64,000 nucleotides of DNA from an uncultured bacterium (GCA_964598025.1 CAZRAU010000001.1:56201-120200); one strand, 5' to 3'. Positions 12,623-36,784 are shown, numbered from the stretch's first letter. Notes: generated by a model not told the origin, from the sequence alone. Program-made: numbers and translations.

Positions 12623-12661
12623 GCCGGTCGGCCGGACGGCTGCAGGAAAGGAGCCTGGACC

Positions 12662-19926: not shown

Positions 19927-21376
19927 GCCGACGCTTGCCGTGTGTATGATCGCTCGGAACGAGGGTAAGAGGCTTCCTACCGCCATAGACAGTGTCAGGA
20001 GGATAGCCGACCAGGTGATAGTCGTTGATACGGGTTCCACGGACGACACGATTGAGGCGGCGCGCTCCCTCGGGGCGGAAGTGGTCGAGTATGCCTGGAA
20101 AGACGACTTCGCCGATGCACGGAACAGGTCACTCGCAGAGGCCCGATGTGATTGGATCCTGTGTCTGGATGCCGACGAGTGGGTTGCACCGGAAAGCGAA
20201 TCCAAGGTGATTGAAGCCCTGTCGGAGGGGGCCGGCGCCTATATGGTACGAATCGAAAGCCGGGTCGATTCTACGGCAGGCAAGGTGTTCGTCAATTTCT
20301 TCCCCAGGCTTTTCCGTAACCTGGAAGGGGTCCGGTTCGAGGGGAAGGTCCATGAACAGGTCGCTCCATCACTCGAAGGCCTTGGTGTGTCGATTGAAGT
20401 CTCCGACATACTGATCAAGCATACGGGCTATGCCCTCTCGGACTCAGACCTTAAGGCGAAGGCCCGTAGAAACGCCGACCTGCTCCTGAAGGATGTGGAG
20501 GAGCATGCCGATGACGCGCTAGCCCTCTTCCACCTGGGCGAAGCCTTCTCAATGCTCGAGCACTTCGAGGAGGCAGTGGAATTTTATGACAGAGCGCTCG
20601 CGGCGGGTGGCCTCGACGGCATAGTCCGCGGTGCCCTGCTCCAGAACAAGGGCACGGCACTTGTGAAGCTCAAGGACTACGAAAAGGCGATCGTCTCGCT
20701 AAGGCAAGCCCGCGAGGTCGATCCCGGGTTGCTCACGGTCCACCTGGTTTTGGCATCGGCCCACTATGGCATGGGGAAGTTCAAGCGGGCGGAACAGGAG
20801 GTGATCTCCTATATCTCCATATGCCGTGAGATAGGACGGGTTAAGCGGATAACCCTCGGGCATGACCCCGACATTCCCAATGCCCTGGTCATGCTCGCCA
20901 GGTGCCGGCTTGCGCTGGGCCGGCTCGACGAGGCAAGGAAGGCTCTCGAGGATGCACTGAGCCTGGATGGGTCTAAGGGTGATGCCCACATGCTCCTGGG
21001 AAGGATAGCTTTTGAGGAGCTCAGGTTCGGCCGGGCGGCGGCCCACTTCGAGAAGGCGGTTGACGCCTATCCCGGCGGAGAGAGGCTTTACTTCGAGCTG
21101 GCCCGGGCATATGTGGCCTGTGGTTCCAACGACAAAGCGATCCGGACGCTGGACAGCGCGATAGAGAACGGAATGGAAGGGGCCGATCTTCTGAGGTGTC
21201 TCGGGGTCCTCAAGATAAAGCAGAAGGATTTCGAGGGTGCGATAGATGCCTATCGCCGGACGCTGGACGTCGATCCCGGCGATGCCGACTCGCGGAAGAA
21301 GCTCGCCGGACTGTATCATGCCCTGGGCAAGACCAATCTTGCGGAAGCAACCCTTGCCGGATGGTCGGGCCGGTGA
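19916..21376 (+). CDS. GT2-family glycosyltransferase with C-terminal TPR domain (GmaR-like architecture; putative flagellin glycosyltransferase)
   Basis: LAVCMIARNEGKRLP...VIVVDTGSTDDT...DWILCLDADE is GT2 with a DxD-like motif. The C-terminal ~250 aa are TPR repeats. An RBS AGGAAGGAG precedes it, and it overlaps the upstream gene by 11 nt. Confidence 0.8.
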   Translation: MRDKPTLAVCMIARNEGKRLPTAIDSVRRIADQVIVVDTGSTDDTIEAARSLGAEVVEYAWKDDFADARNRSLAEARCDWILCLDADEWVAPESESKVIEALSEGAGAYMVRIESRVDSTAGKVFVNFFPRLFRNLEGVRFEGKVHEQVAPSLEGLGVSIEVSDILIKHTGYALSDSDLKAKARRNADLLLKDVEEHADDALALFHLGEAFSMLEHFEEAVEFYDRALAAGGLDGIVRGALLQNKGTALVKLKDYEKAIVSLRQAREVDPGLLTVHLVLASAHYGMGKFKRAEQEVISYISICREIGRVKRITLGHDPDIPNALVMLARCRLALGRLDEARKALEDALSLDGSKGDAHMLLGRIAFEELRFGRAAAHFEKAVDAYPGGERLYFELARAYVACGSNDKAIRTLDSAIENGMEGADLLRCLGVLKIKQKDFEGAIDAYRRTLDVDPGDADSRKKLAGLYHALGKTNLAEATLAGWSGR

Positions 21377-21515
21377 AAACGGTCCGTCTGCCGCGCTATG
21401 CTTGTCCCCCGCCTCGCCATTCACCTGTGTAGTGGGAGCGCTACGAAACACAACGGTCTCTAAGTAGATGCAAGTCTCTGCAAGAGGAGGGTTTGGGGCA
21501 GGCTGGTTTTGCGGC

Positions 21516-21542
21516 TAAAGTAATTCGCAAACCTTGCGATAG
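21516..21542 (+). promoter_or_regulatory. sigma-28 (FliA)-type promoter candidate for the flagellin gene
   Basis: TAAAGT, then a 15-nt spacer, then GCGATAGG. The consensus is TAAA-N15-GCCGATAA. It lies about 215 nt upstream of the flagellin ATG, and the leader is rich in GGA/AGGAAG motifs. Confidence 0.5.
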
Positions 21543-21757
21543 GTCATACGGGAGTTGGATTAAAGGCCGTATAAGGGATCATCCTATGTGCAAAGAACCG
21601 TGGATCGAAAGGAGGTGGGTTCTTTACTTGCCTGCACCTACCTGGTGCGTATTCCGTCCATCTTCAGGAAGTAGAACCTTGGTGCCGGTCATGAAGGCCG
21701 GATCCCAAGCAGGCAAGGAAGCCCCGAGGTCAAGACGATCAAAAGGGGGTTGTTGAA

Positions 21758-22600: not shown

Positions 22601-22639
22601 GTACTGCTGGTCTCGATTGGTCTGGTGCCTCTGGTGGTT

Positions 22640-22664
22640 GGTGCCCCTACTCTGTAGGGGCGCC
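22640..22664 (+). terminator. GC-rich hairpin downstream of flagellin (attenuator/terminator candidate; no U-tract)
   Basis: GGTGCCCCTAC-tct-GTAGGGGCGCC forms a 10-11 bp stem about 40 nt after the fliC stop. Confidence 0.35.
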
Positions 22665-22741
22665 AACCCCGCTTAAGGAACGTAGATCGTCCGGCGCCGT
22701 GACCCATAAGGGTTTGTGTACAAAACAGAAGGGAGCGCGGG

Positions 22742-24529: not shown

Positions 24530-24844
24530 GTGCAATTGATCATTAACGGGGACCACAACGCCATACCTCCGGTTGGAAGCAAGACCGGCGACCCGGACCG
24601 GGGGCCCGCCAAGGCCCGGCGAGATACTCAGCCGAATGATGTTGTGGAGATATCAGGCCGGGCCAATGCGGCCACGCAATCCAACACCGGTAAGCCGGGT
24701 CCCGGCGGCGCCTATAGCGAGATGGGCGCGACTGTGAACCGGGTCCGCACGCAGTTACAAGAGAGAATAACAAGCGGTTTCTACGATAGCGAGGAAGTAC
24801 TCGGACGCATTGCGGGCAAGATGCTCGATCTATTCGGATTATAG
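24530..24844 (+). CDS. flgM: anti-sigma-28 factor FlgM (putative)
   Basis: A small protein about 100 aa long. The C-terminus (VNRVRTQLQERITSGFYDSEEVLGRIAGKMLDL) resembles the conserved sigma-28-binding helices of FlgM (...I..G.Y.vd...IA.k.l). An alternative TTG start at 24536 has better RBS spacing. Confidence 0.6.
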   Translation: MQLIINGDHNAIPPVGSKTGDPDRGPAKARRDTQPNDVVEISGRANAATQSNTGKPGPGGAYSEMGATVNRVRTQLQERITSGFYDSEEVLGRIAGKMLDLFGL

Positions 24845-24883: not shown

Positions 24884-25102
24884 TTGATACTGCTGACTCA
24901 ATTCAATGGCGATGAAGTCTATGTCAATCCGAACCTGATCGAGACCGTGGAGAGCAAGCCCGATACCGTGATCAGGCTTGCCAACGGCAGAAAGATCATA
25001 GTGCGGGAGTCGCGGGAAGATGTTGTTCGGAAGTTCACCGAATTCGCCGCCAAGGTCTCCGGATCTATTATCCAGGATAGCGAGGAACTCCAGTGGACGT
25101 AA
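24884..25102 (+). CDS. flbD: flagellar protein FlbD
   Basis: MILLTQFNGDEVYVNPNLIETVESKPDTVIRLANGRKIIVRES is FlbD-like. It lies immediately upstream of motA and overlaps it. Confidence 0.75.
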   Translation: MILLTQFNGDEVYVNPNLIETVESKPDTVIRLANGRKIIVRESREDVVRKFTEFAAKVSGSIIQDSEELQWT

Positions 25103-25875
25103 CAACGATCGTCGGAATAGTAGTGGGCGGCGGATTGCTCTTCCTGGCCATCTTCCAGGGTGGTGGTGTAGGAGTGTTCATCAACATGCCGGCGCTTATG
25201 ATCACGGCCGGGGGTACGCTTGCCGCAACGCTCATAAACTACCCTCTCGGTGATATGCTCAGAGTGGTCAAGGTCATCAAGAACGCCTTCCTTCACAAGA
25301 TGGAATCGCCCGAGCAGATGATAAAGGCACTGGTGACCTTCGCCGAGAAAGCCCGGCGTGAGGGGCTCCTGGCCCTGGAAAAGGATGCGTCGGCCATCGA
25401 AGATCCCTTTATGAAGGGAGGCCTTGAGATGGCAATAGACGGCCTCGATCCGGATCTGGTGACATCCATGCTCAGGATGGAGCTCACCTTCGTGAGCGAG
25501 AGGCACAAACGCGGTCAGGGCATGTTCAAGGCGATGGGCAAGTTCGCGCCCGCCTTCGGCATGATCGGCACCCTGATCGGGCTCATACAGATGTTGAGAT
25601 CCATCGAGGACCCATCGGCCATCGGCCCCGGCATGGCAGTGGCACTGATAACGACCTTCTACGGCACTCTGATCGCCAACCTGGTATGCATACCGCTGGC
25701 AGGCAAACTGGAGACGATATCCGAGCATGAAATCATGGTGAAGGAGCTCGTGATCGAGGGCATCAGATCGATCCAGTCGGGGGACAGCCCAAGGGTGGTG
25801 GACCGGAAGCTCAAATCGTTCCTTGCCCCAAAGATGAGGGAGAATCTTGAGACGATCAAAGCCGGAGCAAGCTGA
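25093..25875 (+). CDS. motA: flagellar stator protein MotA
   Basis: Four TM helices are predicted, and GMIGTLIGLIQML is a MotA/TolQ/ExbB motif. It has a GTG start. Confidence 0.9.
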   Translation: MDVTTIVGIVVGGGLLFLAIFQGGGVGVFINMPALMITAGGTLAATLINYPLGDMLRVVKVIKNAFLHKMESPEQMIKALVTFAEKARREGLLALEKDASAIEDPFMKGGLEMAIDGLDPDLVTSMLRMELTFVSERHKRGQGMFKAMGKFAPAFGMIGTLIGLIQMLRSIEDPSAIGPGMAVALITTFYGTLIANLVCIPLAGKLETISEHEIMVKELVIEGIRSIQSGDSPRVVDRKLKSFLAPKMRENLETIKAGAS

Positions 25876-26624
25876 TGCCGGTCACGATAAAGAAGAGGGA
25901 AGTGGAGGAAGGGGCCAGCTGGCTCACCACTTTCGGTGATATGATCACCCTGCTTTTCACGTTTTTCGTACTCGTCTATTCCTTCTGCTCATTCAACCCG
26001 GGCGAGTGGGAGACGACTTCAGGCTCCATAAAGGGGGCGTTGGGCGTCATACCCGGTACCAAAGGTGACCGCGTGATCCCCGGGGGCGGTTCCGGGGGCT
26101 TCCCCGGGCATCTCGGCGTCGTGCCGCTCTTCGGCGAGCCCTTTGTGTTCGAAGAGTCCTCACCCAAGAGACCGGCTGAGGAGTTTACCAGAATCCGCGA
26201 GAAGCTGGCGGAAACCGAGGGAATCGAGGTCGAGGAGACTGAGACGGGCTATCTGTTCAGGATTGCCACGCCCGTTCTGTTCGAAGTCGGGAGCGCGGAG
26301 ACCAAGCCTGCCGCGAGACCCTTCCTCAGGGCCATCGCGAAGGCTACATACCAGGCACCGGGCACCATTATTGTGACGGGACACACCTGCGATCTTCCCA
26401 TATCGACTGCGGACTTCGAGTCCAACTGGGAACTGTCTGCGCGCAGGGCCACACACGTCTTACGCGTAATCATGGCCGATGCCAGTCCCGATACCAGGTT
26501 CGTCGCACTGGCACGAGGACAGTACGACCCTCTGATACCCAACCGGAACGAGCTGTGCCGGGCCAGAAACAGAAGGGTGGAGATCAGATTCGACCTGGAG
26601 GGAGGCCTGCCGTTTGAGCCCTGA
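25875..26624 (+). CDS. motB: flagellar stator protein MotB (OmpA-like)
   Basis: The TM segment WLTTFGDMITLLFTFFVLV carries the conserved proton-binding Asp. The C-terminal OmpA peptidoglycan-binding domain is present (NWELSARRA...NRRVEI). Confidence 0.85.
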   Translation: MPVTIKKREVEEGASWLTTFGDMITLLFTFFVLVYSFCSFNPGEWETTSGSIKGALGVIPGTKGDRVIPGGGSGGFPGHLGVVPLFGEPFVFEESSPKRPAEEFTRIREKLAETEGIEVEETETGYLFRIATPVLFEVGSAETKPAARPFLRAIAKATYQAPGTIIVTGHTCDLPISTADFESNWELSARRATHVLRVIMADASPDTRFVALARGQYDPLIPNRNELCRARNRRVEIRFDLEGGLPFEP

Positions 26625-27378
26625 GACCTGGCCCAAAAGACCGGATAAGCCTGAGGAGGCCGACGACAGTTTCATGGTATCGTATTCGGCCCTTATGATC
26701 CTGCTCCTTACGTTCATGATACTGCTGGTGACACTTGCGAATTTCAAGGAGCCGCGCTTCAGAAAGGCCATAGGGTCGGTCAGGGGGGCCTTTTCGTTTC
26801 TGCCCTATGCCGGCGGCGACGAGATTATGGCGCACGGATCGCCCGGCTTCTTGCCCGAGAAAGTCCTGGCCAGGGCCACCACGGATGAACAGGACGAGGG
26901 AGCCTACGAACGTGTCGTAGAGGAGATGATGGCGAAGGCGAAGTCGCCGGACCTGGCGGGTTTCGAGGTGGAGGTGAGTAATGATGGTCTGGCGATCAAG
27001 TTGTCTGATTCACTGATGTTCGAGCAAGGTCGGGCGGAGCTAAGGCCCGGAATCCTCTCTCTCATGGATCTTCTGGCTGAGGTCGTGAATGCCAGACCAG
27101 GGAGAGTTTCCATCATTGGAAACACGTGCGATCTTCCAATATCGAACAAGGAATTCCCATCAAACTGGGAGCTTTCGATCATGAGGGCCGTCAATGTGCT
27201 TCATCATCTTGAGGCGCGAGGAGTAAGTCCGGAATCCCTGTATGCCTATGGGGTTGCCGATCAGAGACCCATTGTTCCGAATGAGGACGAGGCGTCAAGA
27301 CGAGAGAACCGCCGGGTAGAGGTGTACATTGCAAATCGTGGCGGGCAGGTTGATACGGCAAGCGAGGTGCTACATTGA
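26614..27378 (+). CDS. MotB-like paralog (OmpA-like) lacking the conserved TM aspartate
   Basis: Its architecture matches MotB (TM, then an OmpA domain with NWELSIMRA...NRRVEV). The TM reads FMVSYSALMILLLTFMILLV, and aligned by eye it places Ala where MotB has Asp. Confidence 0.75.
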   Translation: MSPETWPKRPDKPEEADDSFMVSYSALMILLLTFMILLVTLANFKEPRFRKAIGSVRGAFSFLPYAGGDEIMAHGSPGFLPEKVLARATTDEQDEGAYERVVEEMMAKAKSPDLAGFEVEVSNDGLAIKLSDSLMFEQGRAELRPGILSLMDLLAEVVNARPGRVSIIGNTCDLPISNKEFPSNWELSIMRAVNVLHHLEARGVSPESLYAYGVADQRPIVPNEDEASRRENRRVEVYIANRGGQVDTASEVLH

Positions 27379-28952
27379 ACACGAGGGCAGCTGATGTGAA
27401 TGCGGGTCAGCCCATTGAACGTACAAACAACAAAGACAGGGATGAAACCACAAGATCGTTGGCTCGTGCGCTATCCGGCGCACTGGATGCCCGAAATCCG
27501 AGGGCGAGAGGGCACTCACACCGGGTTGCCATGTATGCGATGGCGATAATGAACGAGCTGGAGCATGATGGTGATCCGGCATATCAGGATCTGCGTGACC
27601 GCGTGAGGATAGCCGCCCTTCTCCATGACGTCGGCAAGATCGGAATCCCCGACAGTGTGCTCCAGCGGGAGAGCGAGGTTGGTGACGATGGGAGCCGGCT
27701 TCTGAGACAGCATCCGGTCCTTGGGGCAGAGATCATGAGCTCATGTGAGGGCCTCAAAGAGGTGGTTCCGGGGGTTCTATATCACCATGAGCGGGTGGAC
27801 GGATCGGGATATCCTTTCGGGTTGACGGGGAGGAGCATTCCCCCTTCGGCCAGGGTGATCGCGCTTGCCGATGTTTTCGATGCCTTGACCACCGACTACG
27901 GGGTTGAGGAAGTATGTTCACACGAGGAAGCCCTGTGCCGGCTGAAAGGCGATCTGTCCTCAGGATTCGATCCGGACGTACTTGAGGCGCTCTCCAGGGC
28001 ACACCACAGCGGGGCTCTCCGGCATGTACGCCTGCCACATAGGCAAGAGCCGTCGGATGAGGCCGTCGATACGGTTGTGGAGAACGTATACGGCCGTCAG
28101 CTGACGTCGGTTCCGTCGCTGCCGGAGGCAATCTATAAGGTGAACTCACTTCTGGAAAGTCAGGAAGCGTCCCTGAAGGAGATAGCCACGATTCTGTCGA
28201 GCGATTCAGGGCTCGCAAGCAGGGTACTTAAGCTTGTGAATTCAGCATACTACGGGTTGCCCCGGATGGTCTCGACGATCCCCCTGGCAACGACCATTCT
28301 GGGGATCAGGGCGATCAAGAACCAGGTTGTGAACATCGCTTATGCGGATGTCATGAAAGAACTTGGTGGACGTCATGCGGAATACCGGATTCTCTGGACG
28401 CACGCCCTCAAGACAGCCGCCTGGGCGCGCATGATCTGCTCGGAGATCTCCGACATCGATCCCGAGGAGGCCTTCACGGCCGGGCTCATACATGATGTAG
28501 GACGGGCGCTGTGCCTCAGGCTCAGACCGGATACCTATGGGGGGCTCGTTACCCAGGCGGAGGTCAGCGGGAGACCATTAATCGCGATCGAAGAAGAATT
28601 GATAGGGTTCGACCACATGAGCATGGGTGGATGGATGGCAGCGAAATGGATGCTGCCGGGGTCACTGGTCAACTCGATACGGTGGCATCATGACCCGGAA
28701 CGTGTGGCGGACCAGGGGCGGGAGGCATACGAGCTCATACGCATAATCCACATAGCCGACATCGCGGCCAGGGCTTGCGAGGCGGTGGAGGTGAACTTCG
28801 TACCGTTTGTTTTGCGGGAGATAAGTCCGAGGGTGCTCAGGGAGCTTGGGAGCGCATATCTGGTGGATCTTGAACACTTCAAGGAAGCGGCCGAAGAGGC
28901 CGAAAAACAGTTAGAGGAGACTTTTGCCGAAGCCGCCGTCCATGTTTCCTGA
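27375..28952 (+). CDS. HD-GYP domain (c-di-GMP phosphodiesterase family) fused to C-terminal HDOD domain
   Basis: The HD region has HSHRV...ALLHDVGKIGIP...YHHERVDGSGYPFGL (HD-GYP). The C-terminal half reads SLPEAIYKVNSLLES...LASRVLKLVNSAYYG...LIHDVGRA (HDOD). It has a TTG start overlapping the motB' stop. Confidence 0.8.
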   Translation: MNTRAADVNAGQPIERTNNKDRDETTRSLARALSGALDARNPRARGHSHRVAMYAMAIMNELEHDGDPAYQDLRDRVRIAALLHDVGKIGIPDSVLQRESEVGDDGSRLLRQHPVLGAEIMSSCEGLKEVVPGVLYHHERVDGSGYPFGLTGRSIPPSARVIALADVFDALTTDYGVEEVCSHEEALCRLKGDLSSGFDPDVLEALSRAHHSGALRHVRLPHRQEPSDEAVDTVVENVYGRQLTSVPSLPEAIYKVNSLLESQEASLKEIATILSSDSGLASRVLKLVNSAYYGLPRMVSTIPLATTILGIRAIKNQVVNIAYADVMKELGGRHAEYRILWTHALKTAAWARMICSEISDIDPEEAFTAGLIHDVGRALCLRLRPDTYGGLVTQAEVSGRPLIAIEEELIGFDHMSMGGWMAAKWMLPGSLVNSIRWHHDPERVADQGREAYELIRIIHIADIAARACEAVEVNFVPFVLREISPRVLRELGSAYLVDLEHFKEAAEEAEKQLEETFAEAAVHVS

Positions 28953-29025
28953 ACATGCCATGGCCGGGGTGGAGTATGTGCTCTACCCGGACTGTCCCGG
29001 ACGGCCGCTTGGAAGGAGCAATCGC

Positions 29026-29904
29026 ATGGGAAACCATCTAGATGCGTTCGTGCAGTATCCCATATACCCTTCACTGACCTGGCTGGAGAAGGCTCTTCTC
29101 CGCACCAGAATGCCCTGGCCGGCCAGGTGTCCGGTCTGCGGTTCTACGACCCTTATTACCGATGTCGGCCGGAGCCTGCGAGAATCATGCAAGTGTCTGC
29201 GGTGCAAGTCCACCAACAGGCAGCGCCAGATAGCCTATGTGGTCTGTGGGGCTGTGAGCAGAATGACCGGCACCGAGATCGCATCCTTGAAGGAAGTGGC
29301 CGAACAGCAAGACTTGGTCATCTACAATACCGAAGCCGGCCGGCAAGTACACGATCGGCTGGCGGCAATGCCCGGTTACCTGTGCAGCGAGTACTTCGGA
29401 GATGCCTGTACGAGCGGGGATGTGATAGGAGGGAGGATGCACCAGGATCTCATGGCACTCTCATTTGATGACAGGAGCATAGACCTGGTCATATCATCCG
29501 ATGTGTTGGAGCATATGCCCGACCCTTACCGCGCCCACAGGGAAATCCATCGCGTGCTGAAGCCCGGAGGAACCCATGTCTTCACCGTCCCCTTCTACCA
29601 GACCGAATTCGAAGATGAGGACAGAACCATTACCGACATAAGAGGGAACACGGTTTTCATCAAAGACCCCATCTATCACGGCGATCCCATGAGATCGGAG
29701 GGGGCACTGGTTCATAAGATCTTCTCACTGGAGATGCTGGTGAAGCTGGGCAAGATCGGTTTCCGCACCAACATGTACAAGATCTATAAACCGTCCTCAG
29801 GCATTCTCGGGCCCAATGCCCTGGTGTTCGAGGCTGTCGCGCAGGAGGCGGTAACCCAGCGCCGAGAGGCACTGTCGCAAGGCAAAGTGGGAGCCGCAGC
29901 ATGA
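29026..29904 (+). CDS. SAM-dependent methyltransferase (Methyltransf_11-like) with N-terminal CxxC...CxxC zinc ribbon
   Basis: ARCPVCGS...CKCLRCKS forms the ribbon. IDLVISSDVLEHMPDPYRAHREIHRVLKPGGTHVF is a class I MTase motif. The ATG at 29026 follows GGAAGGAG. Confidence 0.7.
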   Translation: MGNHLDAFVQYPIYPSLTWLEKALLRTRMPWPARCPVCGSTTLITDVGRSLRESCKCLRCKSTNRQRQIAYVVCGAVSRMTGTEIASLKEVAEQQDLVIYNTEAGRQVHDRLAAMPGYLCSEYFGDACTSGDVIGGRMHQDLMALSFDDRSIDLVISSDVLEHMPDPYRAHREIHRVLKPGGTHVFTVPFYQTEFEDEDRTITDIRGNTVFIKDPIYHGDPMRSEGALVHKIFSLEMLVKLGKIGFRTNMYKIYKPSSGILGPNALVFEAVAQEAVTQRREALSQGKVGAAA

Positions 29905-31028
29905 CGATACCCGGGAGTCTCAACGGTATGCCGGAGCCAAGGAAGCCGGGGCCCGGCGAGGGGCAGCGTGGTGTGGGTACGCGTACCGCGCTGGATGCCG
30001 AAGAGCCCTTGCTGCAGGGTCGGCCGAGCCGCGAGGACCTGCTCGACACACTGCGAACCCGCTGCAAGAAAGGCGCGCGGGGCAGGCCTCAGAAACTGGA
30101 TCTCAGCGGCCTGGATTTCTCCGGTGAGGATCTTTCCGGCCTGGACCTTTCCGGCTATGACTTCAGCCGGGCGAACCTGGCGCGGGTCGATCTCAGCGCG
30201 TCGAATCTTGGGTGGGCGAAGCTCCGGGAGGCCAATCTTCACAGGGGGACGCTGACCGATTGCGAGCTGGTCGGGGCTGATCTGCAAGGTGCGAATCTCA
30301 GTGAGTGTTCGGCCGAAAGGTCGGGGCTGGGTGCCACCGATCTGACCGGTGCCGGACTGATCAGTGCGAACCTGCGTCACGCCACGCTTAGCGAAGCAAA
30401 CATGCGCGGCGCTGATCTGCGGGCGGCGAATCTTCAAGGCTGCAATATTCGGAGTGCGGACCTAACCAACGCGAACTGCACGCGGGCCGAACTCCAGGGG
30501 GCCGATCTTCAGGAGAGCAATGTTCTGGGCACCAGCTTTGAAGTGGCTAACCTGCAGAGGGCCCGGCTGCTCGGCATAAAGAACTATCTTAAGGCTAATT
30601 GGATCGGCACGGACATCCGTGAAGTCGATCTCCGTGGTGCCTATCTGATCCGGCGCTTCATATCGGACGAGAACTACCTCTATGAATTTCGAACCCGGAG
30701 CAAGTACCACAAGGTCCTCTACCGCCTCTGGTGGTTGACTTCGGATTGCGGCCGGAGCCTCTCTCGCTGGACCTTCTGGGTGGCGGCGGTGACGGTGGTC
30801 TTCGCGATTCTGTATAGTACCACCGATGTGGACTACGGCGCCCATCGCACCGTCTTCTCTCCTCTCTATTACAGTGTAGTGACTCTAACGACACTCGGCT
30901 ACGGTGACGTAGTCCCGGCTTCGGGTGGGGCCCAGGCGATCGCAGCCATACAGGCTGTGCTTGGCTATGTGGGCCTGGGGGGATTCCTGAGCATATTGGC
31001 GAACAAGATGGCCCGAAGGGCCGACTGA
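29901..31028 (+). CDS. pentapeptide-repeat domain fused to a 2-TM K+-channel-type pore (TTLGYGD selectivity filter)
   Basis: About 200 aa of A(D/N)LxG pentapeptide repeats (ANLARVDLSASNLGWAKLREANLHRGTL...). Then TM1, a pore helix SVVTLTTLGYGDVVP and TM2. ATGA overlap with the upstream MTase. Confidence 0.75.
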   Translation: MTIPGSLNGMPEPRKPGPGEGQRGVGTRTALDAEEPLLQGRPSREDLLDTLRTRCKKGARGRPQKLDLSGLDFSGEDLSGLDLSGYDFSRANLARVDLSASNLGWAKLREANLHRGTLTDCELVGADLQGANLSECSAERSGLGATDLTGAGLISANLRHATLSEANMRGADLRAANLQGCNIRSADLTNANCTRAELQGADLQESNVLGTSFEVANLQRARLLGIKNYLKANWIGTDIREVDLRGAYLIRRFISDENYLYEFRTRSKYHKVLYRLWWLTSDCGRSLSRWTFWVAAVTVVFAILYSTTDVDYGAHRTVFSPLYYSVVTLTTLGYGDVVPASGGAQAIAAIQAVLGYVGLGGFLSILANKMARRAD

Positions 31029-31050
31029 TCGCCAATCGGAGGGTACGAAA

Positions 31051-31899
31051 ATGTCATTGCTACGATTAGGCAGGAAGAGCGATCCGAAGGGCAAGCTGAA
31101 GAAGGTCCTCGGTGAATACAATCTGCCTTCATTCCCGGGCGCCGTCATGCAAGTGCTTCAGACAATTCGCGACCCCCGGTCCTCAGCGTCTTCGGTTGCC
31201 GATGTCCTCGCAGTCGATCCCGGCCTCTCGGTGCGGGTGCTGCGTGTGGCCAATTCACCGGTGTTCTCCCCGGTTCGAAAGGTCGAGAACCTTGCCCAGG
31301 CGGTAGCTCTTGTCGGACTGACGGAGCTGGAGTCGCTGGTCCTTTCGATAAGCGTCAGGGGAAATCTGCCTCGCGACTCAGCAGAAGGCTACGACTTCGC
31401 GAGATTCTGGCGGGCTTCAGCGAGGCGAGGTTTCGTGGCCCGGGCGCTGGCGGAAATCCTGTGCCCGGCCCGGGAGTCCGAGAGTTTCACGGCGGGCCTC
31501 CTACAGGATATGGCCCTTCCTTTCCTTGCCCATCAGAGATCCAAGGAATACGGTCCGGTCCTTCACCAGTGGCACACCACCGATGTGCTCCTGCATGAGC
31601 TGGAGCGCGAGGTATTCGGCTGGGACCACGCCGAGGTTGGGGCCTGGATCTGTGACGAGTGGAATCTTCCCGAGAGTATAGTCTCTGCCATAGGCAGCCA
31701 CCATCCCGGTGGCGTCCGCAACGGGTGTCCGGTATCGGTGGCTCTAGCGGCCTACCTGCGCGAGGCTGAGGACAGGACCGGCGTGGATAGCCTTATCAAG
31801 ATGGCTGCGACCGAGTATCAGATCAGCGCTGAAAGGGCCGGTGAGATCGTCGAATCGGCGTTCCGGCAAGCGGAAGAATTCACCCAACTCCTCGGTTGA
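31051..31899 (+). CDS. HDOD domain protein
   Basis: PSFPGAVMQVLQTIRDP...SVRVLRVANSPVFS...GLLQDMA...HAEVGAWI are HDOD hallmarks. 282 aa. Confidence 0.8.
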   Translation: MSLLRLGRKSDPKGKLKKVLGEYNLPSFPGAVMQVLQTIRDPRSSASSVADVLAVDPGLSVRVLRVANSPVFSPVRKVENLAQAVALVGLTELESLVLSISVRGNLPRDSAEGYDFARFWRASARRGFVARALAEILCPARESESFTAGLLQDMALPFLAHQRSKEYGPVLHQWHTTDVLLHELEREVFGWDHAEVGAWICDEWNLPESIVSAIGSHHPGGVRNGCPVSVALAAYLREAEDRTGVDSLIKMAATEYQISAERAGEIVESAFRQAEEFTQLLG

Positions 31900-31910: not shown

Positions 31911-32768
31911 CTAAAACAGTTTCTTCACCTCGGCCACTTCGTCTTCGAGGTCAACCATCAGGCCGGCAATCTCGATGTCGCTGAGATTGAGGTATTCGAT
32001 CGACCGTTGGCTCAGGAGATCCATCTCTGTATCGGGCCTAAGATGGAACCCCATCTTACACGATATCGCGTCCGCCGCTTGTATCTGCATTGTCAGCGGC
32101 TGGTCGGGATCAATCTCCTCATCGTGATGGTGCAGCGCCGCATAGCAGATGGGTTCCGGCACACTCCATGTGGTCAGTGTTCTATGACCGAGCTCGGTAT
32201 GGAGAACGGCCATCAGTTCGTCCAGCACCACGGGCGTTATCTCCGCCCCATCATGACCCTCAACATAATCCACGGCGCGGAGTACCAGGAGTTTGCCCGT
32301 GTCATGCAGCAGACCTGCCACAAACGCCTCCTCCGGCTCCAGGCCGGTGAGCCCCGCTACATGTTTTGATGCCATCGCCGTTGTGACGGCGTGGCTCCAG
32401 AGGGTCTCGAGAAGTCGGGACTTCTCGGGATCATCCGATTGAAAGTGCCCACTGTGTGCAAGTGCCGTGACCGCCGATGTCACTTGCCTGAAACCAAGCC
32501 TTGCAATTGCCAGGGACAGATCGGAAACCGGGTTCAGACCGCCGAAGGCGGCGGAGTTTGCCCACCTCAGAAGTGTCGCCGCGATGGCAGGATCGGTCCC
32601 CACGAGTGCCGCAATCCTCTTGGAGCTGGTGCTGCCCTGGTCCCTGAGGAGCTCCATGAGGCGATTCACGAGATTGGGAAGTGGCGGAAGAGCGATCGTC
32701 CCGGCATCCACAACTGCGCGGATGCTGTCTGCAATGGATTGTGTTGTCAATGCTGTTGTCTTGTTCAC
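31911..32768 (-). CDS. HDOD domain protein
   Basis: LPPLPNLVNRLMELLRD...AATLLRWANSAAFG...GLLHDTGKLL are HDOD hallmarks. It overlaps the upstream ATPase stop by 4 nt. Confidence 0.8.
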   Translation of the reverse strand: MNKTTALTTQSIADSIRAVVDAGTIALPPLPNLVNRLMELLRDQGSTSSKRIAALVGTDPAIAATLLRWANSAAFGGLNPVSDLSLAIARLGFRQVTSAVTALAHSGHFQSDDPEKSRLLETLWSHAVTTAMASKHVAGLTGLEPEEAFVAGLLHDTGKLLVLRAVDYVEGHDGAEITPVVLDELMAVLHTELGHRTLTTWSVPEPICYAALHHHDEEIDPDQPLTMQIQAADAISCKMGFHLRPDTEMDLLSQRSIEYLNLSDIEIAGLMVDLEDEVAEVKKLF

Positions 32769-34732
32769 CGTGCCCTCCTTAGTGCAGCGGTTTCCCTGAT
32801 GGTTGTCATGTCTCTGAGCTCGGAGTCGCGGGGAGCGTTGTCTGCGATCTCAGAAAGGGTGGTCTGTCCGGCGGCGACTTTTAGAAGGCCGTCCTCTTCA
32901 AGGGTAAGGAACCCCGGGATCATCTTCGCGATACGCCTGAGATCTCTGGATGAAGCCTTCGCTAGAATGGCGTCACGGAAATCGTCATCCAAGAGCAGGA
33001 CCTCATGTATGCCCATACGTCCGAGGTAGCCGGTGCCGCCACATTCGGGGCAACCGGCGCCCGCAAGCAGGGGCACGCCTCTCAGATAATCGCGGTCAAG
33101 TCCGAGGAAACGGAGGTCCTTCTTGGAGGGTTCGACCGGCCTTCGGCAGTTCTCGCAGATGCGCCTGACCAGACGCTGGGCAATGACACATGTCAATGTC
33201 GATGCTACCAGGAAAGGTTCGACCTTCATCTCGAGAAGACGCACCACCGTGGCCACCCCATCATCGGTGTGAAATGTCGAGAACACCTTGTGGCCGGTCA
33301 GGGCTGCCTCCGTGGCAAGCCCCGCCGTCACACTGTCACGGATCTCGCCGACAACGATCACATCGGGATCCTGACGGACAATGGACTTAAGGGAGTCCGC
33401 GAAGGTCGGGCCGCTCTTCTCATTCACCGAACACTGAGTAGTACCGTCGAGAACATATTCGACGGGATTCTCGCAGGATATGATCTTGAGGCTGTCATCT
33501 CTGGTAAAATCCACGAACGAATACATGGTGGTCGTCTTGCCGCTCCCGGTCGGTCCGGTGATCAGTACGAGACCGCTGGAACTTCTGAGCACGACCTCCC
33601 TGAGCAAACCCAGTATTCTGGGTTCGAAGCCCAGGGCATCAAGCGGAACAAGCCCCCGCCGGCGATCGAGCAGCCGCAGTACAAGCGTCTCCCCGAATAC
33701 CGATGCATAGGAGCTCACCCTTATGTCCACGCCCCTGCCGCCGGCATCCACGAAGAACCTGCCATCCTGATGCAGCCGCCGCTCGGCTATATCCATCTTC
33801 GCAAGCACTTTCACCCGGGAGAGTATGCGCGGGGCGAAGTCGTTCGGAAGATCGGTTAGGTGACGCAAGACGCCATCCACCCTTACCCTTGCTCGTACCT
33901 TGTTCTCAAGGGGCTCGATATGGAGATCGCTGGCGCCGAGGTCTATAGCTTGTGACAGAACATGATCCACAATTGCGGTAGCCCCTTCCCCTGCTTCTTC
34001 GTCCTGCGGCATCTCCTGGATGTCCTTATACTGGAGGACCGTCGACATCTCCACGCCACTGCAATCTCTGAAGCGCTCCAGGGTGCGGAGGGCTTCCTCG
34101 ATCTTGGCGGTAACCGCGGCGCAGGGCCTTATGGGCTGGCCGTAGGTTCGCTCCAGCTCGTCGATCAGAGCGGTATTGAGAGGGTCCGACATAACGACAT
34201 TCAGATGGCCTTCGACGACCCTGAGTGGGAGGGCCTGCTGGCGGATAAGATACGGAATGGAGACCTGCGACAGCGTTGCCGTGTCGACCAGACTCACATC
34301 CGGCTCGATGTACGGGATGTCGTCCTTCGCGCAGAGTGCCCTGAGGTATTGCTCTTCTGTAATCAAGCCCTCTTTAAGGAGCACCTCGCGTTCGCCCAGA
34401 TTGGGACTCTTCGACTTGGCTGCGTGATATCGGGCCAACCCCTCCGCATCGAGAAGGCCATCCTCGAAGAGAATGCGCGCGGTGCTGAGTCTGGACCTGT
34501 ATAGGTGCATGACCCGATCGTGCTCCGACCTGGTGAGCTGTCCGAGGTCCACGAGCACGTTCCCTACCGATCTGGCCTCCTGGAGACGACCCGCCACGCG
34601 ACGGGCGCGTTTCAGCTGCTCCTCGGTGACCAGGTTCTCCGCAAGCAGCAGATTCTCAAACTCGACAGGATGGTGCTGTTCCTCGGGGGGCCGTTCGGCC
34701 CTGGTTACAGTGGTGCTATCTGATGGATTCAT
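32765..34732 (-). CDS. GspE/PilB/MshE-family secretion ATPase with two N-terminal MshEN-type (c-di-GMP-binding) motifs
   Basis: Walker A LITGPTGSGKTT and a tetracysteine CENC...CPEC are present. The N-terminus has GNVLVDLGQLTRSEHDRVMHL and GEREVLLKEGLITEEQYLRAL, resembling the MshEN RLGxxLLxxGxITxxQLxxAL motif. The ORF-track start at 35197 gives a 155-aa Arg/Pro-rich extension, which I rejected. The ATG at 34732 follows GGGGAGGA. Confidence 0.85.
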   Translation of the reverse strand: MNPSDSTTVTRAERPPEEQHHPVEFENLLLAENLVTEEQLKRARRVAGRLQEARSVGNVLVDLGQLTRSEHDRVMHLYRSRLSTARILFEDGLLDAEGLARYHAAKSKSPNLGEREVLLKEGLITEEQYLRALCAKDDIPYIEPDVSLVDTATLSQVSIPYLIRQQALPLRVVEGHLNVVMSDPLNTALIDELERTYGQPIRPCAAVTAKIEEALRTLERFRDCSGVEMSTVLQYKDIQEMPQDEEAGEGATAIVDHVLSQAIDLGASDLHIEPLENKVRARVRVDGVLRHLTDLPNDFAPRILSRVKVLAKMDIAERRLHQDGRFFVDAGGRGVDIRVSSYASVFGETLVLRLLDRRRGLVPLDALGFEPRILGLLREVVLRSSSGLVLITGPTGSGKTTTMYSFVDFTRDDSLKIISCENPVEYVLDGTTQCSVNEKSGPTFADSLKSIVRQDPDVIVVGEIRDSVTAGLATEAALTGHKVFSTFHTDDGVATVVRLLEMKVEPFLVASTLTCVIAQRLVRRICENCRRPVEPSKKDLRFLGLDRDYLRGVPLLAGAGCPECGGTGYLGRMGIHEVLLLDDDFRDAILAKASSRDLRRIAKMIPGFLTLEEDGLLKVAAGQTTLSEIADNAPRDSELRDMTTIRETAALRRAR

Positions 34733-35014
34733 AGTGCGTCCTCCCCACCAGTATCTTCGGCAAGAACCGGGGTTGTCTTGAGCACCGGGAAGGCGCCCGG
34801 GTCGCCTGGGGAACCGCCTATGGCCCGCGACCAGGGCGTCTCGCCGGGGTGGGGTGCCCGGATGTTCCGCGTCGCATAACTTGACAAATCCCCGCACAGT
34901 GCTATCCTTCCCTATAGACTGCGATATGGCCATCAGGGATGTTGGGCGCATGCATGGGATGGTATGCACCAATAGACGGGTCGACAGGTTCAATAGCGCC
35001 TTGAGATCCGGATT

Positions 35015-36784
35015 GTGGGCGGAGCGCCTGTGAAGAGTGAGAGACGACGTCGGGTTACCACGCGGGAGCTTATGGCCGAGCTCCGTCGGAGCGAGGCTCA
35101 GTACAGATCTACGATCGACTCCATGACCGATGCCCTTCACGTTGTGGATCGGGATCTCAGGATCGTTCTCATGAACAGGGCCTTCCTCGATTGGCACGAG
35201 AGGCTCGGTCTCACAGGAGACGCAGTCGGCAAGTTATTGAATGAAGTCTATGATTTCCTCCCCCCAAGTGTGGAAGAAGAGTACCGGAAGGTCTTCAAGG
35301 CCGGCGAGTTGTTGACCACCGAAGAGCTCACGACGATCGGCGACAGAGAGATCACTACCGAAACCAGGAAGATCCCGATCTGTGAAAGAGGGAAGGTTGT
35401 CAAAGTCATAACCATAGTGCGTGATATCACCGAGCGTAAGTGCATGGAGAAGGCCCTGAGGCTGAGTGAGGCGAAATTCAAGACCCTCGCGGAACAGTCC
35501 CCCAACATGATTTTCATGCACCGGATGGGCAAGATCGTATATGTGAACAAGAAGTGCGCGGAGATAATGGGATACACAAGGGAAGAATTCTATGCGCCGG
35601 GATTCGACTTCTTGTGCGTCGCGGCTCCGGAGTCCATCACGGATATAGCGGGCGGGTACTCGGCCTACCTGGAGGGGCGCGGGTATCACTCACATGAGGC
35701 TACGCTTATTACGAAGAGCGGGAGGAGAATCGACTGTATTGTGGCGTGGTCCGCGGTCGACTACGGTGACGGCAAAGCCATGTTGGGGGTTGTGACGGAC
35801 ATCACCGGCCGGAAAGACGCGGAGAGGTCGCTCAGGATCAGTGAAGAGAAATACCGGTCCTTTGTCGAAAACTTCCATGGCATTGCATACCGCGGGGGTT
35901 CGGATGGGGCCCCCATATTCTTCCATGGGGATGTTCGGAGAATAACGGGATATGCCGAGGAGGAATTCCTCCGGGGCATGCCGGCCTGGACGGATATTGT
36001 TCTGCCGGAAGACAGGCAAGAACCCCACGGGGGGCCATTGATGGAAAACCCCAGGGGCGGTGTGCAGCCGGCTGAACGTGAATACAGGATACGAAGAAGA
36101 GACGGTGAGATCCGATGGATCCATCAGTCCTTGCGGCCCGTCCGTGATGAATCGGGTGCGGCTATGTATCTTCAAGGAGCCCTTTACGATGTCACGGCCC
36201 GGAGAGTTGCTGAAGACAAGAGCGCGCGTGAGCGTAGCGCCTTCGGGAGCATTGTGGATGCTGCAACCACGAGCAAAGGGCCGCCCGAGGTATGCGAGAA
36301 GGTTTTGTGCGGATTGATCGCGACTCTGGGTTTCGACTGCGGGGTAGTACGCCTGTATGACCGGGAGACTCGAACGCTCAATCTCGTATGTACACACGGC
36401 TTCACTCCCAGCGAAGTTGACAGGTATCTACATGATCAGCATATCGACGATTCCCGTGGTATCGCCGCCCTTGTAGGGCGGACGCTGAAGGCGGTGTGGG
36501 CGCCGGATGTGTCGCATAGTGAGGAAATGAAAGAATACAGGCACCGGTGCTCGGAGGTGCGTGTGAGGTCCATGATAGGGTGGCCGCTGGTTTCCTCGGA
36601 TCGCACTTTGCTGGGGGTAATGCATCTGATGGGCCGGACCCCGAGAGACATCCCGGAAGAAGACCGCGTCTTTTTCCGGACGGTCGGTGACATGTTCGTG
36701 GTTGTGCTGGAGTGGAAACAAGCAGAGCAATCCATCAAGAGTAGTGAGGCAAGGTACAGGAGCCATTTCGAGAACTCTCCATAG
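35015..36784 (+). CDS. cytoplasmic PAS-PAS-PAS-GAF sensor protein ending inside the N-cap of a further PAS domain (no output domain; possibly truncated)
   Basis: Repeated PAS N-caps (SEAQYRSTIDSMTDAL, SEAKFKTLAEQSPNMIF, SEEKYRSFVENFHGI) and a GAF-like segment are present. The protein ends ...SEARYRSHFENSP and then a stop. It has a GTG start, and the start position is uncertain. Confidence 0.65.
   Translation: MGGAPVKSERRRRVTTRELMAELRRSEAQYRSTIDSMTDALHVVDRDLRIVLMNRAFLDWHERLGLTGDAVGKLLNEVYDFLPPSVEEEYRKVFKAGELLTTEELTTIGDREITTETRKIPICERGKVVKVITIVRDITERKCMEKALRLSEAKFKTLAEQSPNMIFMHRMGKIVYVNKKCAEIMGYTREEFYAPGFDFLCVAAPESITDIAGGYSAYLEGRGYHSHEATLITKSGRRIDCIVAWSAVDYGDGKAMLGVVTDITGRKDAERSLRISEEKYRSFVENFHGIAYRGGSDGAPIFFHGDVRRITGYAEEEFLRGMPAWTDIVLPEDRQEPHGGPLMENPRGGVQPAEREYRIRRRDGEIRWIHQSLRPVRDESGAAMYLQGALYDVTARRVAEDKSARERSAFGSIVDAATTSKGPPEVCEKVLCGLIATLGFDCGVVRLYDRETRTLNLVCTHGFTPSEVDRYLHDQHIDDSRGIAALVGRTLKAVWAPDVSHSEEMKEYRHRCSEVRVRSMIGWPLVSSDRTLLGVMHLMGRTPRDIPEEDRVFFRTVGDMFVVVLEWKQAEQSIKSSEARYRSHFENSP

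What the first reader, a model, noticed from the sequence alone, without database searches (positions are those of the whole stretch)
24884..31899. Stator operon extended by a c-di-GMP/ion-channel signalling tail
flbD-motA-motB-motB' is followed, with overlapping or very short junctions, by an HD-GYP/HDOD fusion, a Zn-ribbon methyltransferase, a pentapeptide-repeat/K+-channel fusion and an HDOD protein. Such tight linkage suggests a dedicated module that modulates the motor. Plausible inputs are c-di-GMP turnover and ion flux or membrane potential. I know of no described system that matches it.
Basis: inference. Interest (0 to 1): 0.7.

Follow-up and report, generated by a model that had tools for sequence, protein, structure and literature searches.

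The report
Flagellar stator operon with signalling tail
In a group of uncultured bacteria the genes for the flagellar motor's force-generating units are followed in one tight gene string by a c-di-GMP-degrading enzyme and, in some members, by a potassium channel with its own partner protein, an arrangement kept across related genomes that gives testable ideas about how motors are throttled and what the long-mysterious HDOD domain does.

Summary
Junctions are -10, -1, -11, -4, +73, -4 and +22 nt, with no terminator signal above chance.

Synteny does not refute the idea, but it splits the tail into separate modules.

1. The HD-GYP-HDOD fusion follows motB' in 8 of 9 independent relatives' loci (50-75% identity). 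More distant homologues (43% and about 32-36%) are not next to mot genes. All catalytic HD-GYP residues are invariant.

2. MTase, K+ channel and HDOD occur together after the stator genes in the window and three relatives. In one of these they follow motB' directly, without the fusion.

3. The channel-HDOD pair is a cassette of its own. It lies adjacent in two unrelated genomes far from flagellar genes, and the two hit lists share 31 contigs against 1 in the control.

New here: motB' lacks the universal ion-binding Asp in all eight genomes. It is a conserved degenerate paralogue, not a duplicate stator subunit.

Best reading: a lineage-specific stator operon with a hard-wired c-di-GMP phosphodiesterase plus an optional recruited K+ channel/HDOD unit. 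All functions are inferred. I rate it a new variant of a known kind, interest about 0.6.

The parts
24530..24844 (+). Conserved 104-aa gene of unknown function between fliD and flbD
   Evidence: No Pfam hit even at E<=1. Present at the same position in all relatives at 37-64% identity. It lies 39 nt upstream of flbD.
24884..25102 (+). flbD
   Evidence: PF06289 FlbD, E 9e-24.
25093..25875 (+). motA (PomA/MotP-like stator A subunit)
   Evidence: MotA_ExbB, E 1e-30. Best NCBIfam hits are PomA at 276 bits and MotP at 266 bits, both below their cut-offs. Identity to relatives is 79-93%.
25875..26624 (+). motB, the canonical B subunit with the ion-binding Asp
   Evidence: MotB_plug + OmpA. The TM motif TTFGDMITLLFTFF keeps the Asp in all 8 genomes.
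26614..27378 (+). motB', a conserved MotB paralogue that lacks the ion-binding Asp
   Evidence: MotB_plug + OmpA. It is 31% identical to motB. The TM motif is SYSALMILLLTFM, with Ala or Ser at the Asp position in all 8 genomes. Only about 3 close representative clusters exist among 1.84 billion.
27375..28952 (+). HD-GYP (predicted c-di-GMP phosphodiesterase) fused to an HDOD domain; short form without the N-terminal GAF-like domain
   Evidence: Pfam HD_5 + HDOD. H47, H84-D85, K88, H113, H137-H138-E139, G143xG145-Y146-P147 and D169 are invariant in 26 homologues. The HDOD half keeps five His and one Asp. A model of the long-form homologue has pLDDT 84.7 and matches PmGH 4mcw, PA4781 4r8z, DvhD 9rbz and the HDOD structures 3hc1 and 9qzk.
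28962..29006 (+). Conserved GC-rich hairpin in the 73-nt spacer between the fusion gene and the MTase gene
   Evidence: The spacer DNA is 89% identical among the window, L171 and L001. The RNAalifold hairpin shows three one-sided, wobble-compatible changes and no broken stem pair in the core helix. There are only 3 sequences and no U-tract. It is absent in L173, where the fusion gene is missing.
29026..29904 (+). Cys4 zinc-ribbon plus class I SAM-methyltransferase-like protein, substrate unknown
   Evidence: Methyltransf_11 matches the C-terminal half only. The start at 29026 is supported by orthologues. Identity is 80-82% in L001, L171 and L173, and 53% in L002. The motif I position reads YNTEAG instead of GxGxG.
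29901..31028 (+). 2-TM K+ channel with an N-terminal cytoplasmic pentapeptide-repeat domain
   Evidence: Pentapeptide E 2e-32 and Ion_trans_2 E 6e-11. Filter TTLGYGD. The family has at least 120 clusters at >=51% identity, with TLGYGD in 118 of 120. No solved structure of this fusion was found.
31051..31899 (+). Stand-alone HDOD protein, the conserved partner of the channel
   Evidence: HDOD E 2e-53. It lies directly after the channel in L171, L173 and the P0128 contig, and also in the unrelated loci L174 and L175. The family has QD instead of HD in 109 of 120 members.
31911..32768 (-). Convergent HDOD protein with intact His/Asp metal ligands
   Evidence: HDOD E 5e-43 plus HD. Sequence shown. 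Conserved with the ATPase in L083, L171 and L173.
32765..35197 (-). MshE-like T2SS/T4P ATPase with an MshEN (c-di-GMP-binding type) domain
   Evidence: T2SSE E 2e-102 and MshEN E 2e-15. NCBIfam GspE/PilB hits are below their cut-offs.

Best explanation
This is the 3' half of a late flagellar gene string in an uncultured lineage that NCBI labels only 'bacterium'. The stator set flbD-motA-motB-motB' has been extended by accessory signalling cassettes that are conserved independently of each other.

(1) The HD-GYP-HDOD protein is a lineage-wide member of the stator operon. It has every catalytic residue of an active HD-GYP c-di-GMP phosphodiesterase. Being made together with the stator units, it most likely lowers c-di-GMP when and where stators are made, and so counteracts c-di-GMP-dependent inhibition of the motor (inferred). 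Most relatives carry an N-terminal GAF-like sensor domain. The window's sub-clade has lost it.

(2) A methyltransferase of unknown substrate, followed by a K+ channel and its HDOD partner, forms an optional second block. The channel-HDOD pair is an older, self-contained two-gene unit found in many unrelated bacteria. It was recruited to the end of this operon. The degenerate HDOD protein is most likely the cytoplasmic regulatory partner of the channel's pentapeptide-repeat domain. Any effect on the motor would go through K+ flux and membrane potential, which sets the ion-motive force that drives the stators (inferred).

(3) motB' is not a spare stator subunit. It lacks the ion-binding Asp in every genome, so it cannot conduct ions in the usual way. 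It probably acts as a structural or regulatory partner of MotA/MotB (inferred).

Shown here: gene content, residues, conserved synteny and the modular pattern of presence and absence. Not shown: co-transcription, enzyme activity, channel gating, or any motility effect.
For: - Domains and residues.
- Fusion directly after motB', with a -17 to +44 nt junction, in L001, L002, L083, L085, L087, L171/L172 and the P0017 contig. Genes downstream of it differ between loci, so rearrangements happened right behind it while it stayed attached.
- Trio after the stator genes in the window, L171/L172, the P0017 contig and L173. In L173 it follows motB' directly and overlaps it by 20 nt.
- Tail proteins are as conserved as the stator B subunits: MTase 80-82%, channel 73-77%, HDOD 79-82%, against motB 71-80% in the same loci.
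- Trio-bearing genomes lie on two separate branches of the fusion-protein tree.
- Channel-HDOD adjacency outside the lineage: L174 (+86 nt) and L175 (-4 nt). The two top-120 hit lists share 31 contig lengths, 16 of them under 8 kb, against 1 for the channel-versus-fusion control.
- motB' lacks the Asp in 8 of 8 genomes.
- Structure model and fold matches for the fusion.
- Stand-alone HDOD proteins change swimming in several species (PMC11813219; PMC11004494).
Against: - All stator-linked cases are from one lineage in which the whole flagellar region is syntenic, so shared ancestry alone could keep the genes together.
- The tail is dispensable: L083, L085 and L087 lack the trio and L173 lacks the fusion.
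- More distant fusion homologues (43% and about 32-36% identity) sit in unrelated contexts.
- The channel-HDOD pair is not near flagellar genes in either sampled outside genome.
- No PilZ-type c-di-GMP receptor was found among the ORFs scanned in the window, so the target of any c-di-GMP control is unidentified.
- The 73-nt spacer with a conserved hairpin could separate two transcription or processing units.
- There are no transcript, biochemical or genetic data, and the organisms are uncultured.
Confidence: 0.45

Rival explanations
1. Only the HD-GYP-HDOD phosphodiesterase is functionally tied to the motor. The MTase-channel-HDOD block is a general K+/ion-homeostasis or signalling cassette that happens to sit in a variable slot at the operon's end, with no motor-specific role.
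For: - The channel-HDOD pair is widespread and lies away from flagellar genes in L174 and L175.
- The slot after the fusion is variable: TM_HPP in L083, flavodoxin on the opposite strand in L085, and glgP-pfk in L002 and L087.
- The trio is missing in several relatives.
- A 73-nt spacer with a conserved hairpin separates it from the fusion gene.
Against: - The trio sits at the same place on two separate branches of the lineage.
- In L173 it is joined directly to motB' with a 20-nt overlap after loss of the fusion.
- No promoter-like site was found in the spacer.
- Its proteins are conserved as strongly as the stator B subunits.
Confidence: 0.3
2. The whole tail is a passenger. The genes are neighbours of the stator genes only through shared ancestry within one lineage and have no functional link to motility.
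For: - All linked loci belong to one lineage with a fully syntenic flagellar region.
- More distant homologues of the fusion are elsewhere in the genome.
- Short junctions are common in compact genomes.
Against: - The fusion stays attached to motB' with overlapping or <=44-nt junctions, while everything behind it has been rearranged at least four different ways.
- c-di-GMP control of stators is an established theme (reviewed in PMC9303241).
- HDOD proteins affect swimming in other bacteria (PMC11813219, PMC11004494).
Confidence: 0.1
3. The tail belongs functionally with the convergent HDOD / MshE-like ATPase pair. Together they would form a c-di-GMP switch between swimming and pilus- or secretion-based surface attachment, rather than a modulator of the motor itself.
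For: - There are three HDOD-containing genes within 5.4 kb.
- The MshE-like ATPase carries an MshEN domain.
- The HDOD-MshE pair is conserved next to the stator operon in L083, L171 and L173.
- HD-GYP genes are followed by MshE-like ATPases in unrelated loci L074, L099, L102, L109, L116 and L125.
Against: - The pair is on the opposite strand.
- It is absent next to the operon in L085, L002, L087 and the P0017 contig.
- No pilin or platform genes were seen nearby in the window.
Confidence: 0.1

Closest known systems
c-di-GMP brakes acting on stators through PilZ receptors (E. coli YcgR, Bacillus MotI/DgrA, Pseudomonas FlgZ, Vibrio PlzD)
   Same: c-di-GMP signalling aimed at the MotA/MotB stator level of the motor (PMC9303241, PMC3913639, PMC10653909, and my own knowledge).
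   Different: Here the operon encodes a degrading enzyme (HD-GYP), not a receptor. No PilZ gene was found in the scanned window ORFs. The enzyme is fused to HDOD and sits inside the stator operon, which I did not find described.
HD-GYP phosphodiesterases with solved structures (PmGH 4mcw, PA4781 4r8z, DvhD 9rbz, Bd1817 3tm8)
   Same: Same fold and the full HD...HHExxDGxGYP motif set.
   Different: It has a C-terminal HDOD domain with a second complete His5/Asp site. The sensor is GAF-like, or absent as in the window, rather than REC or PAS.
Stand-alone HDOD proteins that alter swimming (PSPTO_4229, PFL_0554/PFL_5871, Cj0248, GsmR, SadB)
   Same: About 280-aa HDOD-only proteins with a genetic link to motility (PMC11813219, PMC11004494, PMC12075610). 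PDB sequence matches include 3m1t, 3hc1 and 1vqr.
   Different: The window's HDOD-only protein belongs to a distinct, tightly conserved subfamily (QD instead of HD) that is paired with a K+ channel gene. No such pairing is reported in those papers.
KcsA/MthK-type prokaryotic K+ channels with cytoplasmic regulatory domains
   Same: 2-TM pore with a TxGYGD filter and a large cytoplasmic domain.
   Different: The cytoplasmic domain is an N-terminal pentapeptide-repeat beta-helix, not RCK or CNBD. A separate HDOD gene is its conserved neighbour. No solved structure of this architecture was found.
Tandem stator B genes (for example Aquifex motA-motB1-motB2) and multi-stator systems such as MotAB/MotCD and MotAB/MotPS (my own knowledge)
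   Same: One motA followed by two motB-like genes.
   Different: In those systems both B subunits keep the Asp and conduct ions. Here the second one has lost it in all 8 genomes.
NaVBP channel supporting Na+-driven motility in alkaliphilic Bacillus; K+-channel electrical signalling that affects swimming (my own knowledge; PMC4225499, PMC11149930)
   Same: An ion channel influencing flagellar motility through ion cycling or membrane potential.
   Different: Those channels are not encoded in the stator operon and belong to other channel families.

Membership tests
HD-GYP c-di-GMP phosphodiesterase | HD dyad plus further His ligands and the HHExxDGxGYP motif | tested here: met
   H47, H84-D85, H113, H137-H138-E139, G143xG145-Y146-P147 and D169 are invariant in 26 sequences. 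The motif is present in 94 of 98 homologues.
HD-GYP c-di-GMP phosphodiesterase | HD-GYP fold | tested here: met
   The model of homologue P0002 (74% identical) has pLDDT 84.7. Foldseek matches are 4mcw (E 3e-12), 4r8z and 9rbz.
HD-GYP c-di-GMP phosphodiesterase | Hydrolysis of c-di-GMP (or cGAMP) | not testable with these tools
   Needs purified protein.
HDOD domain (PF08668) | Profile match above the curated cut-off | tested here: met
   Fusion 199.5 bits, HDOD-only 181.6 bits, convergent HDOD 147.2 bits; the cut-off is 22.9 bits.
HDOD domain, metal-binding type (as in 3hc1) | Five His and one Asp lining the pocket | tested here: met
   This holds for the fusion's HDOD half (H343, H373-D374, H414, H438-H439) and for the convergent HDOD. 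It does NOT hold for the channel-linked HDOD, which has Ala at the first His and QD instead of HD. The description of the pocket comes from PMC12075610.
MotB stator subunit (applied to motB') | Single TM helix, plug region and OmpA-like peptidoglycan-binding domain | tested here: met
   MotB_plug E 1.6e-9 and OmpA E 3e-11.
MotB stator subunit (applied to motB') | Universally conserved ion-binding Asp in the TM helix | tested here: not met
   Ala or Ser at that column in all 8 orthologues, while motB keeps Asp in all 8. motB' is therefore not filed as a functional ion-conducting MotB.
K+ channel (Ion_trans_2) | Pore helix plus TxGYGD selectivity filter between two TM helices | tested here: met
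   Ion_trans_2 E 6e-11. Filter TTLGYGD. TLGYGD in 118 of 120 family members.
K+ channel (Ion_trans_2) | Tetrameric assembly and K+-selective conduction | not testable with these tools
   Needs biochemistry or electrophysiology.
Class I SAM-dependent methyltransferase | Rossmann-like fold with the GxGxG SAM-binding motif I | tested here: inconclusive
   Only the post-motif-II half matches Pfam and PDB profiles. The motif I position reads an invariant YNTEAG. The single-sequence AF2 model is unusable, pLDDT 38.
PilZ-type c-di-GMP motor brake (YcgR/MotI) | PilZ-domain protein encoded with the flagellar or stator genes | tested here: not met
   No PilZ hit among the roughly 55 window ORFs scanned with Pfam. 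The rest of the genome was not available.
Single operon | Co-directional genes with short or overlapping junctions and no terminator | tested here: met
   Junctions are -11 to +73 nt. Terminator-like sites are no more frequent than in shuffles, and none lies after motB'.
Single operon | One transcript spanning motB' to the last HDOD gene | not testable with these tools
   Needs RNA data.

The most novel reading that the evidence does not exclude
The operon would encode a three-layer control of the stator that has not been described.

- An Asp-less MotB' forms non-conducting units, or mixed MotB/MotB' units, that occupy or lock rotor positions.
- A stator-coupled HD-GYP-HDOD enzyme sets local c-di-GMP.
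- An HDOD-gated pentapeptide-repeat K+ channel tunes membrane potential and hence motor torque.

This would give the HDOD domain its first defined molecular job, as the regulatory subunit of an ion channel.
Probability: 0.12. Interest if true: 0.85.

Novelty: new variant of a known kind. Interest (0 to 1): 0.6.

Why it matters
c-di-GMP control of flagellar motors is known mainly through PilZ receptors that bind stators or the switch. A phosphodiesterase built into the stator operon would be a different, local way to protect a newly assembled motor from that brake.

The conserved K+ channel-HDOD gene pair is found in many bacteria. It offers a concrete, testable hypothesis for the HDOD domain, whose function has stayed unknown even though several HDOD proteins affect swimming.

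The conserved MotB paralogue without the ion-binding Asp raises the possibility of non-conducting stator units as regulators. I found no description of this in the literature searched.

All of this comes from uncultured organisms. The first tests would therefore be heterologous, or done in cultured carriers of the channel-HDOD pair.

Tried and rejected
They returned almost only unrelated HD-GYP genes, so they gave no denominator for synteny. Only L003 (36% identity, full length) was a useful extra.
- The single-sequence AlphaFold model of the MTase had pLDDT 38 and was not used.
- Profile searches of the MTase against PDB, Pfam and NCBIfam gave only generic class I methyltransferases. An RlmA-like rRNA methyltransferase reading was considered but no match supports it.
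- The PADLOC scan showed no defence-system membership. The ZorB hits to motB' are generic MotB similarity.
- Rfam gave no hit in the window, so no known c-di-GMP riboswitch is present.
- The plasmid tblastn with the channel found nothing relevant.
- I suspected from its C-terminal sequence that the 104-aa gene before flbD is FlgM-like, but Pfam gives no hit even at E<=1. It stays unknown.
- Sigma-28, sigma-54 and sigma-70 consensus scans found no convincing internal promoter in the tail.
- The organism could not be placed. NCBI names for relatives are only 'bacterium'. C-terminal FlgD_ig domains on secreted enzymes hint at the FCB group, but this was not tested.

Full report
**What is in the window.**

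The region lies at the end of a long co-directional flagellar cluster. In order:
- flgF/G/A/H/I/J, flgN, flgK/L, fliW, csrA
- a block of glycosyltransferase, methyltransferase and TPR genes
- flagellin, fliS, fliD
- a conserved 104-aa gene of unknown function

From 24884 the + strand then carries:
- flbD
- motA, whose best NCBIfam hits are PomA and MotP, both below their cut-offs
- motB and a second motB-like gene
- a 525-aa HD_5 (HD-GYP) + HDOD fusion
- a Cys4 plus class I methyltransferase-like protein
- a 375-aa protein with about 200 aa of pentapeptide repeats followed by a 2-TM pore with the filter TTLGYGD
- a 282-aa HDOD-only protein

The junctions are -10, -1, -11 and -4 nt up to the fusion gene. 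The next junction is +73 nt to the methyltransferase start that orthologues support (ATG 29026). The last two are -4 and +22 nt.

Twelve nucleotides after the last stop codon, a convergent pair ends: an HDOD protein with intact His/Asp ligands and an MshE-like ATPase with an MshEN domain. The two + strand ORFs the listing shows beyond 31899 have no family match and overlap these minus-strand genes, so I read them as their shadows.

Consensus scans give no more terminator-like or promoter-like sites than shuffled sequence, and none after motB'. Rfam finds nothing in the window. G+C content is even across the region.

Exact-protein look-ups of homologues gave nine independent related loci.

| Locus | Identity to window | After flbD-motA-motB-motB' |
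|---|---|---|
| L001 | fusion 74% | fusion, MTase, then contig end |
| L083 | fusion 70% | fusion, then a TM_HPP gene, then the same convergent HDOD/MshE pair |
| L085 | fusion 61% | fusion, then opposite-strand flavodoxin |
| L002 | fusion 55% | fusion, glgP, pfk, MTase |
| L087 | fusion 50% | fusion, glgP, pfk |
| P0017/P0128 contig | fusion 57%, channel 71% | fusion, MTase, channel, HDOD |
| L171/L172 | channel 75-77% | fusion, MTase, channel, HDOD, then the convergent pair |
| L173 | channel 73% | no fusion; MTase overlaps motB' by 20 nt, then channel, HDOD |

So the fusion follows motB' in 8 of 9 loci, while everything behind it has been rearranged in several different ways. The MTase-channel-HDOD trio recurs in three relatives, once without the fusion.

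More distant fusion homologues are not near mot genes. These are the Eisenbacteria-labelled P0063 at 43% identity and P0085 at about 32-36% identity.

A tblastn table shows the tail proteins are as conserved as the stator B subunits:
- MTase 80-82%
- channel 73-77%
- HDOD 79-82%
- motB 71-80% and motB' 58-70% in the same loci

On a neighbour-joining tree of the fusion proteins, the trio-bearing genomes fall on two separate branches, with fusion-only genomes between them. That fits an old association with repeated loss. Transfer between relatives is not excluded.

**The channel-HDOD pair is a unit of its own.**

The channel belongs to a large, uniform family. At least 120 clusters are >=51% identical, with a median length of 363 aa. 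TLGYGD is present in 118 of 120. Sources name it only 'pentapeptide repeat-containing protein', in Desulfobacterales, Pseudomonadota and others.

The HDOD-only protein belongs to an equally uniform family of about 283 aa over the same range of organisms. Members have QD in place of the HD dyad in 109 of 120.

In two unrelated genomes the two genes are adjacent and far from flagellar genes:
- L174: +86 nt between them
- L175: a 4-nt overlap, followed by a hybrid kinase and a sigma-54 regulator

The channel list and the fusion list share only 1. I found no paper describing this pairing and no solved structure of this channel architecture.

**The fusion protein.**

In an alignment of 26 homologues, every HD-GYP ligand and motif residue is invariant. 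The HDOD half keeps five His and one Asp. This is the same set that binds two iron ions in the Geobacter HDOD structure 3hc1, according to PMC12075610.

Most homologues are about 700 aa, with an extra N-terminal domain. A model of P0002 has pLDDT 84.7. It matches the following:
- HD-GYP structures: 4mcw at E 3e-12, 4r8z and 9rbz
- HDOD structures: 9qzk and 3hc1
- weakly, GAF domains for the N-terminal part (E 0.03-0.06)

The window and a few close relatives have the short form, which starts right at the motB' stop codon. Galperin's HD-GYP census (bioRxiv 10.1101/2021.11.05.467447) mentions HDOD only as a distinct domain and does not mention a stator link. A search for MotB + stator + HD-GYP found no such operon.

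**motB' is not a duplicate.**

motB carries the canonical TM motif TTFGDMITLL. motB' has SYSALMILLL. The ion-binding Asp is Ala or Ser in all eight orthologues, whereas motB keeps it in all eight. The plug-like region and the OmpA-type domain are retained.

In a search of 1.84 billion representatives, only about three clusters are close relatives of motB'. About 20 of the best 150 MotB-like proteins from elsewhere also lack the Asp. I found no description of Asp-less MotB paralogues.

**How it most likely works.**

Shown here:
- a co-directional, tightly spaced gene string
- conserved attachment of a catalytically complete HD-GYP enzyme to the stator genes across a lineage
- an optional second block whose core, channel plus HDOD, is an independent conserved pair
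- a degenerate second MotB

Inferred:
- The phosphodiesterase is made with the stators and lowers c-di-GMP, which in many bacteria slows or stops motors at the stator level (PMC9303241).
- The QD-type HDOD protein regulates the K+ channel through its cytoplasmic pentapeptide-repeat domain.
- K+ flux changes the membrane potential, and with it the driving force for the stators.
- motB' acts as a structural or regulatory partner.

Stand-alone HDOD proteins change swimming in Pseudomonas, Xanthomonas and Campylobacter without a known mechanism (PMC11813219, PMC11004494).

Against a dedicated motor module:
- The tail is dispensable in some relatives.
- All linked cases share ancestry.
- The outside channel-HDOD pairs are not flagellar.
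- No PilZ receptor was seen in the window.

The 73-nt spacer after the fusion gene is unusually conserved, 89% at the DNA level. It folds into a GC-rich hairpin without a U-tract, and may mark a processing or attenuation point.

**Verdict.**

The linkage is conserved, not fortuitous, but the 'module' is a mosaic of separable cassettes and only the phosphodiesterase is lineage-wide. The arrangement is a new variant of known c-di-GMP and ion-motive control of motility.

It has two side results worth following up: the channel-HDOD gene pair and the Asp-less MotB'. Interest 0.6.

Noticed in passing
window 26614-27378 (and L001, L002, L083, L085, L087, L171, L173): The second motB-like gene lacks the universally conserved ion-binding Asp (Ala/Ser instead) in all eight genomes. 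It keeps the TM helix, the plug-like region and the OmpA domain.
   Followed up: yes
proteins P0383, P0389, P0400, P0415, P0426, P0427, P0440, P0455, P0461, P0471, P0483, P0495, P0499, P0512, P0513: About 20 of the 150 best MotB-like representatives from other, unknown organisms also lack the Asp (Ser/Ala/Asn/Thr). Asp-less MotB-like proteins therefore recur beyond this lineage. Their genomic context was not retrieved.
   Followed up: partly
window 28953-29025 (hairpin about 28962-29006): The spacer between the fusion and MTase genes is 89% identical at the DNA level among the window, L171 and L001, more than expected from the 73-82% protein identity of the flanking genes. It folds into a GC-rich hairpin kept through three wobble-compatible changes, with no U-tract. 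It is missing in L173 together with the fusion gene.
   Followed up: partly
L174 8001-9982; L175 8001-9949: The pentapeptide-repeat K+ channel and a QD-type HDOD gene are adjacent in unrelated bacteria away from flagellar genes. The hit lists share 31 contigs. This looks like a conserved two-gene cassette that has not been described.
   Followed up: partly
window 31911-35197 (-), L083, L171, L173: A convergent operon, MshE-like ATPase (MshEN domain) then HDOD with an intact His5/Asp site, ends 12 nt from the stop of the last tail gene. The pair is conserved in three relatives.
   Followed up: partly
L074, L099, L102, L109, L116, L125 (about 10001-12750): In unrelated metagenome and genome loci, an HD-GYP gene is followed about 0.5 kb downstream on the same strand by an MshE-like T2SSE ATPase (33-39% identical to the window's). 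This may be a recurring phosphodiesterase/c-di-GMP-binding ATPase pair.
   Followed up: no
L002 12085-15819; L087 12076-15829: In two relatives the fusion gene is followed, with overlapping junctions, by glycogen phosphorylase and phosphofructokinase on the same strand. Carbohydrate-catabolic genes therefore sit directly behind the stator operon.
   Followed up: no
window 27375 versus P0002 and other ~700-aa homologues: The window's fusion protein, like P0004, P0008, P0010, P0011 and the one in L171, lacks the N-terminal GAF-like domain of about 185 aa that most homologues have. The gene starts at the motB' stop codon.
   Followed up: yes
window 24530-24844: A 104-aa gene between fliD and flbD is conserved in all relatives (37-64% identity) but has no Pfam match even at E<=1. 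Its C-terminus looked FlgM-like to me, but that is unsupported.
   Followed up: partly
window about 21515-21545 and 22633-22668: A sigma-28-like motif (CTAAAG-N16-GCGATAG) lies upstream of the flagellin gene. A strong GC-rich palindrome lies between flagellin and fliS. No promoter-like site occurs in the 39 nt before flbD.
   Followed up: partly
window 13469-21376: A large block inside the flagellar cluster, just upstream of flagellin, holds a heptosyltransferase-like gene, a methyltransferase, a 1363-aa multi-glycosyltransferase/TPR protein and a 522-aa GT2/TPR protein. It is probably flagellin glycosylation, and it is conserved in relatives.
   Followed up: no
window 57432-58979 and 60384-63173: Two proteins carry a C-terminal FlgD_ig-like domain. 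One is of unknown function and the other has a papain-family peptidase domain. This may be a secretion sorting tag and a hint at the organism's affiliation.
   Followed up: no
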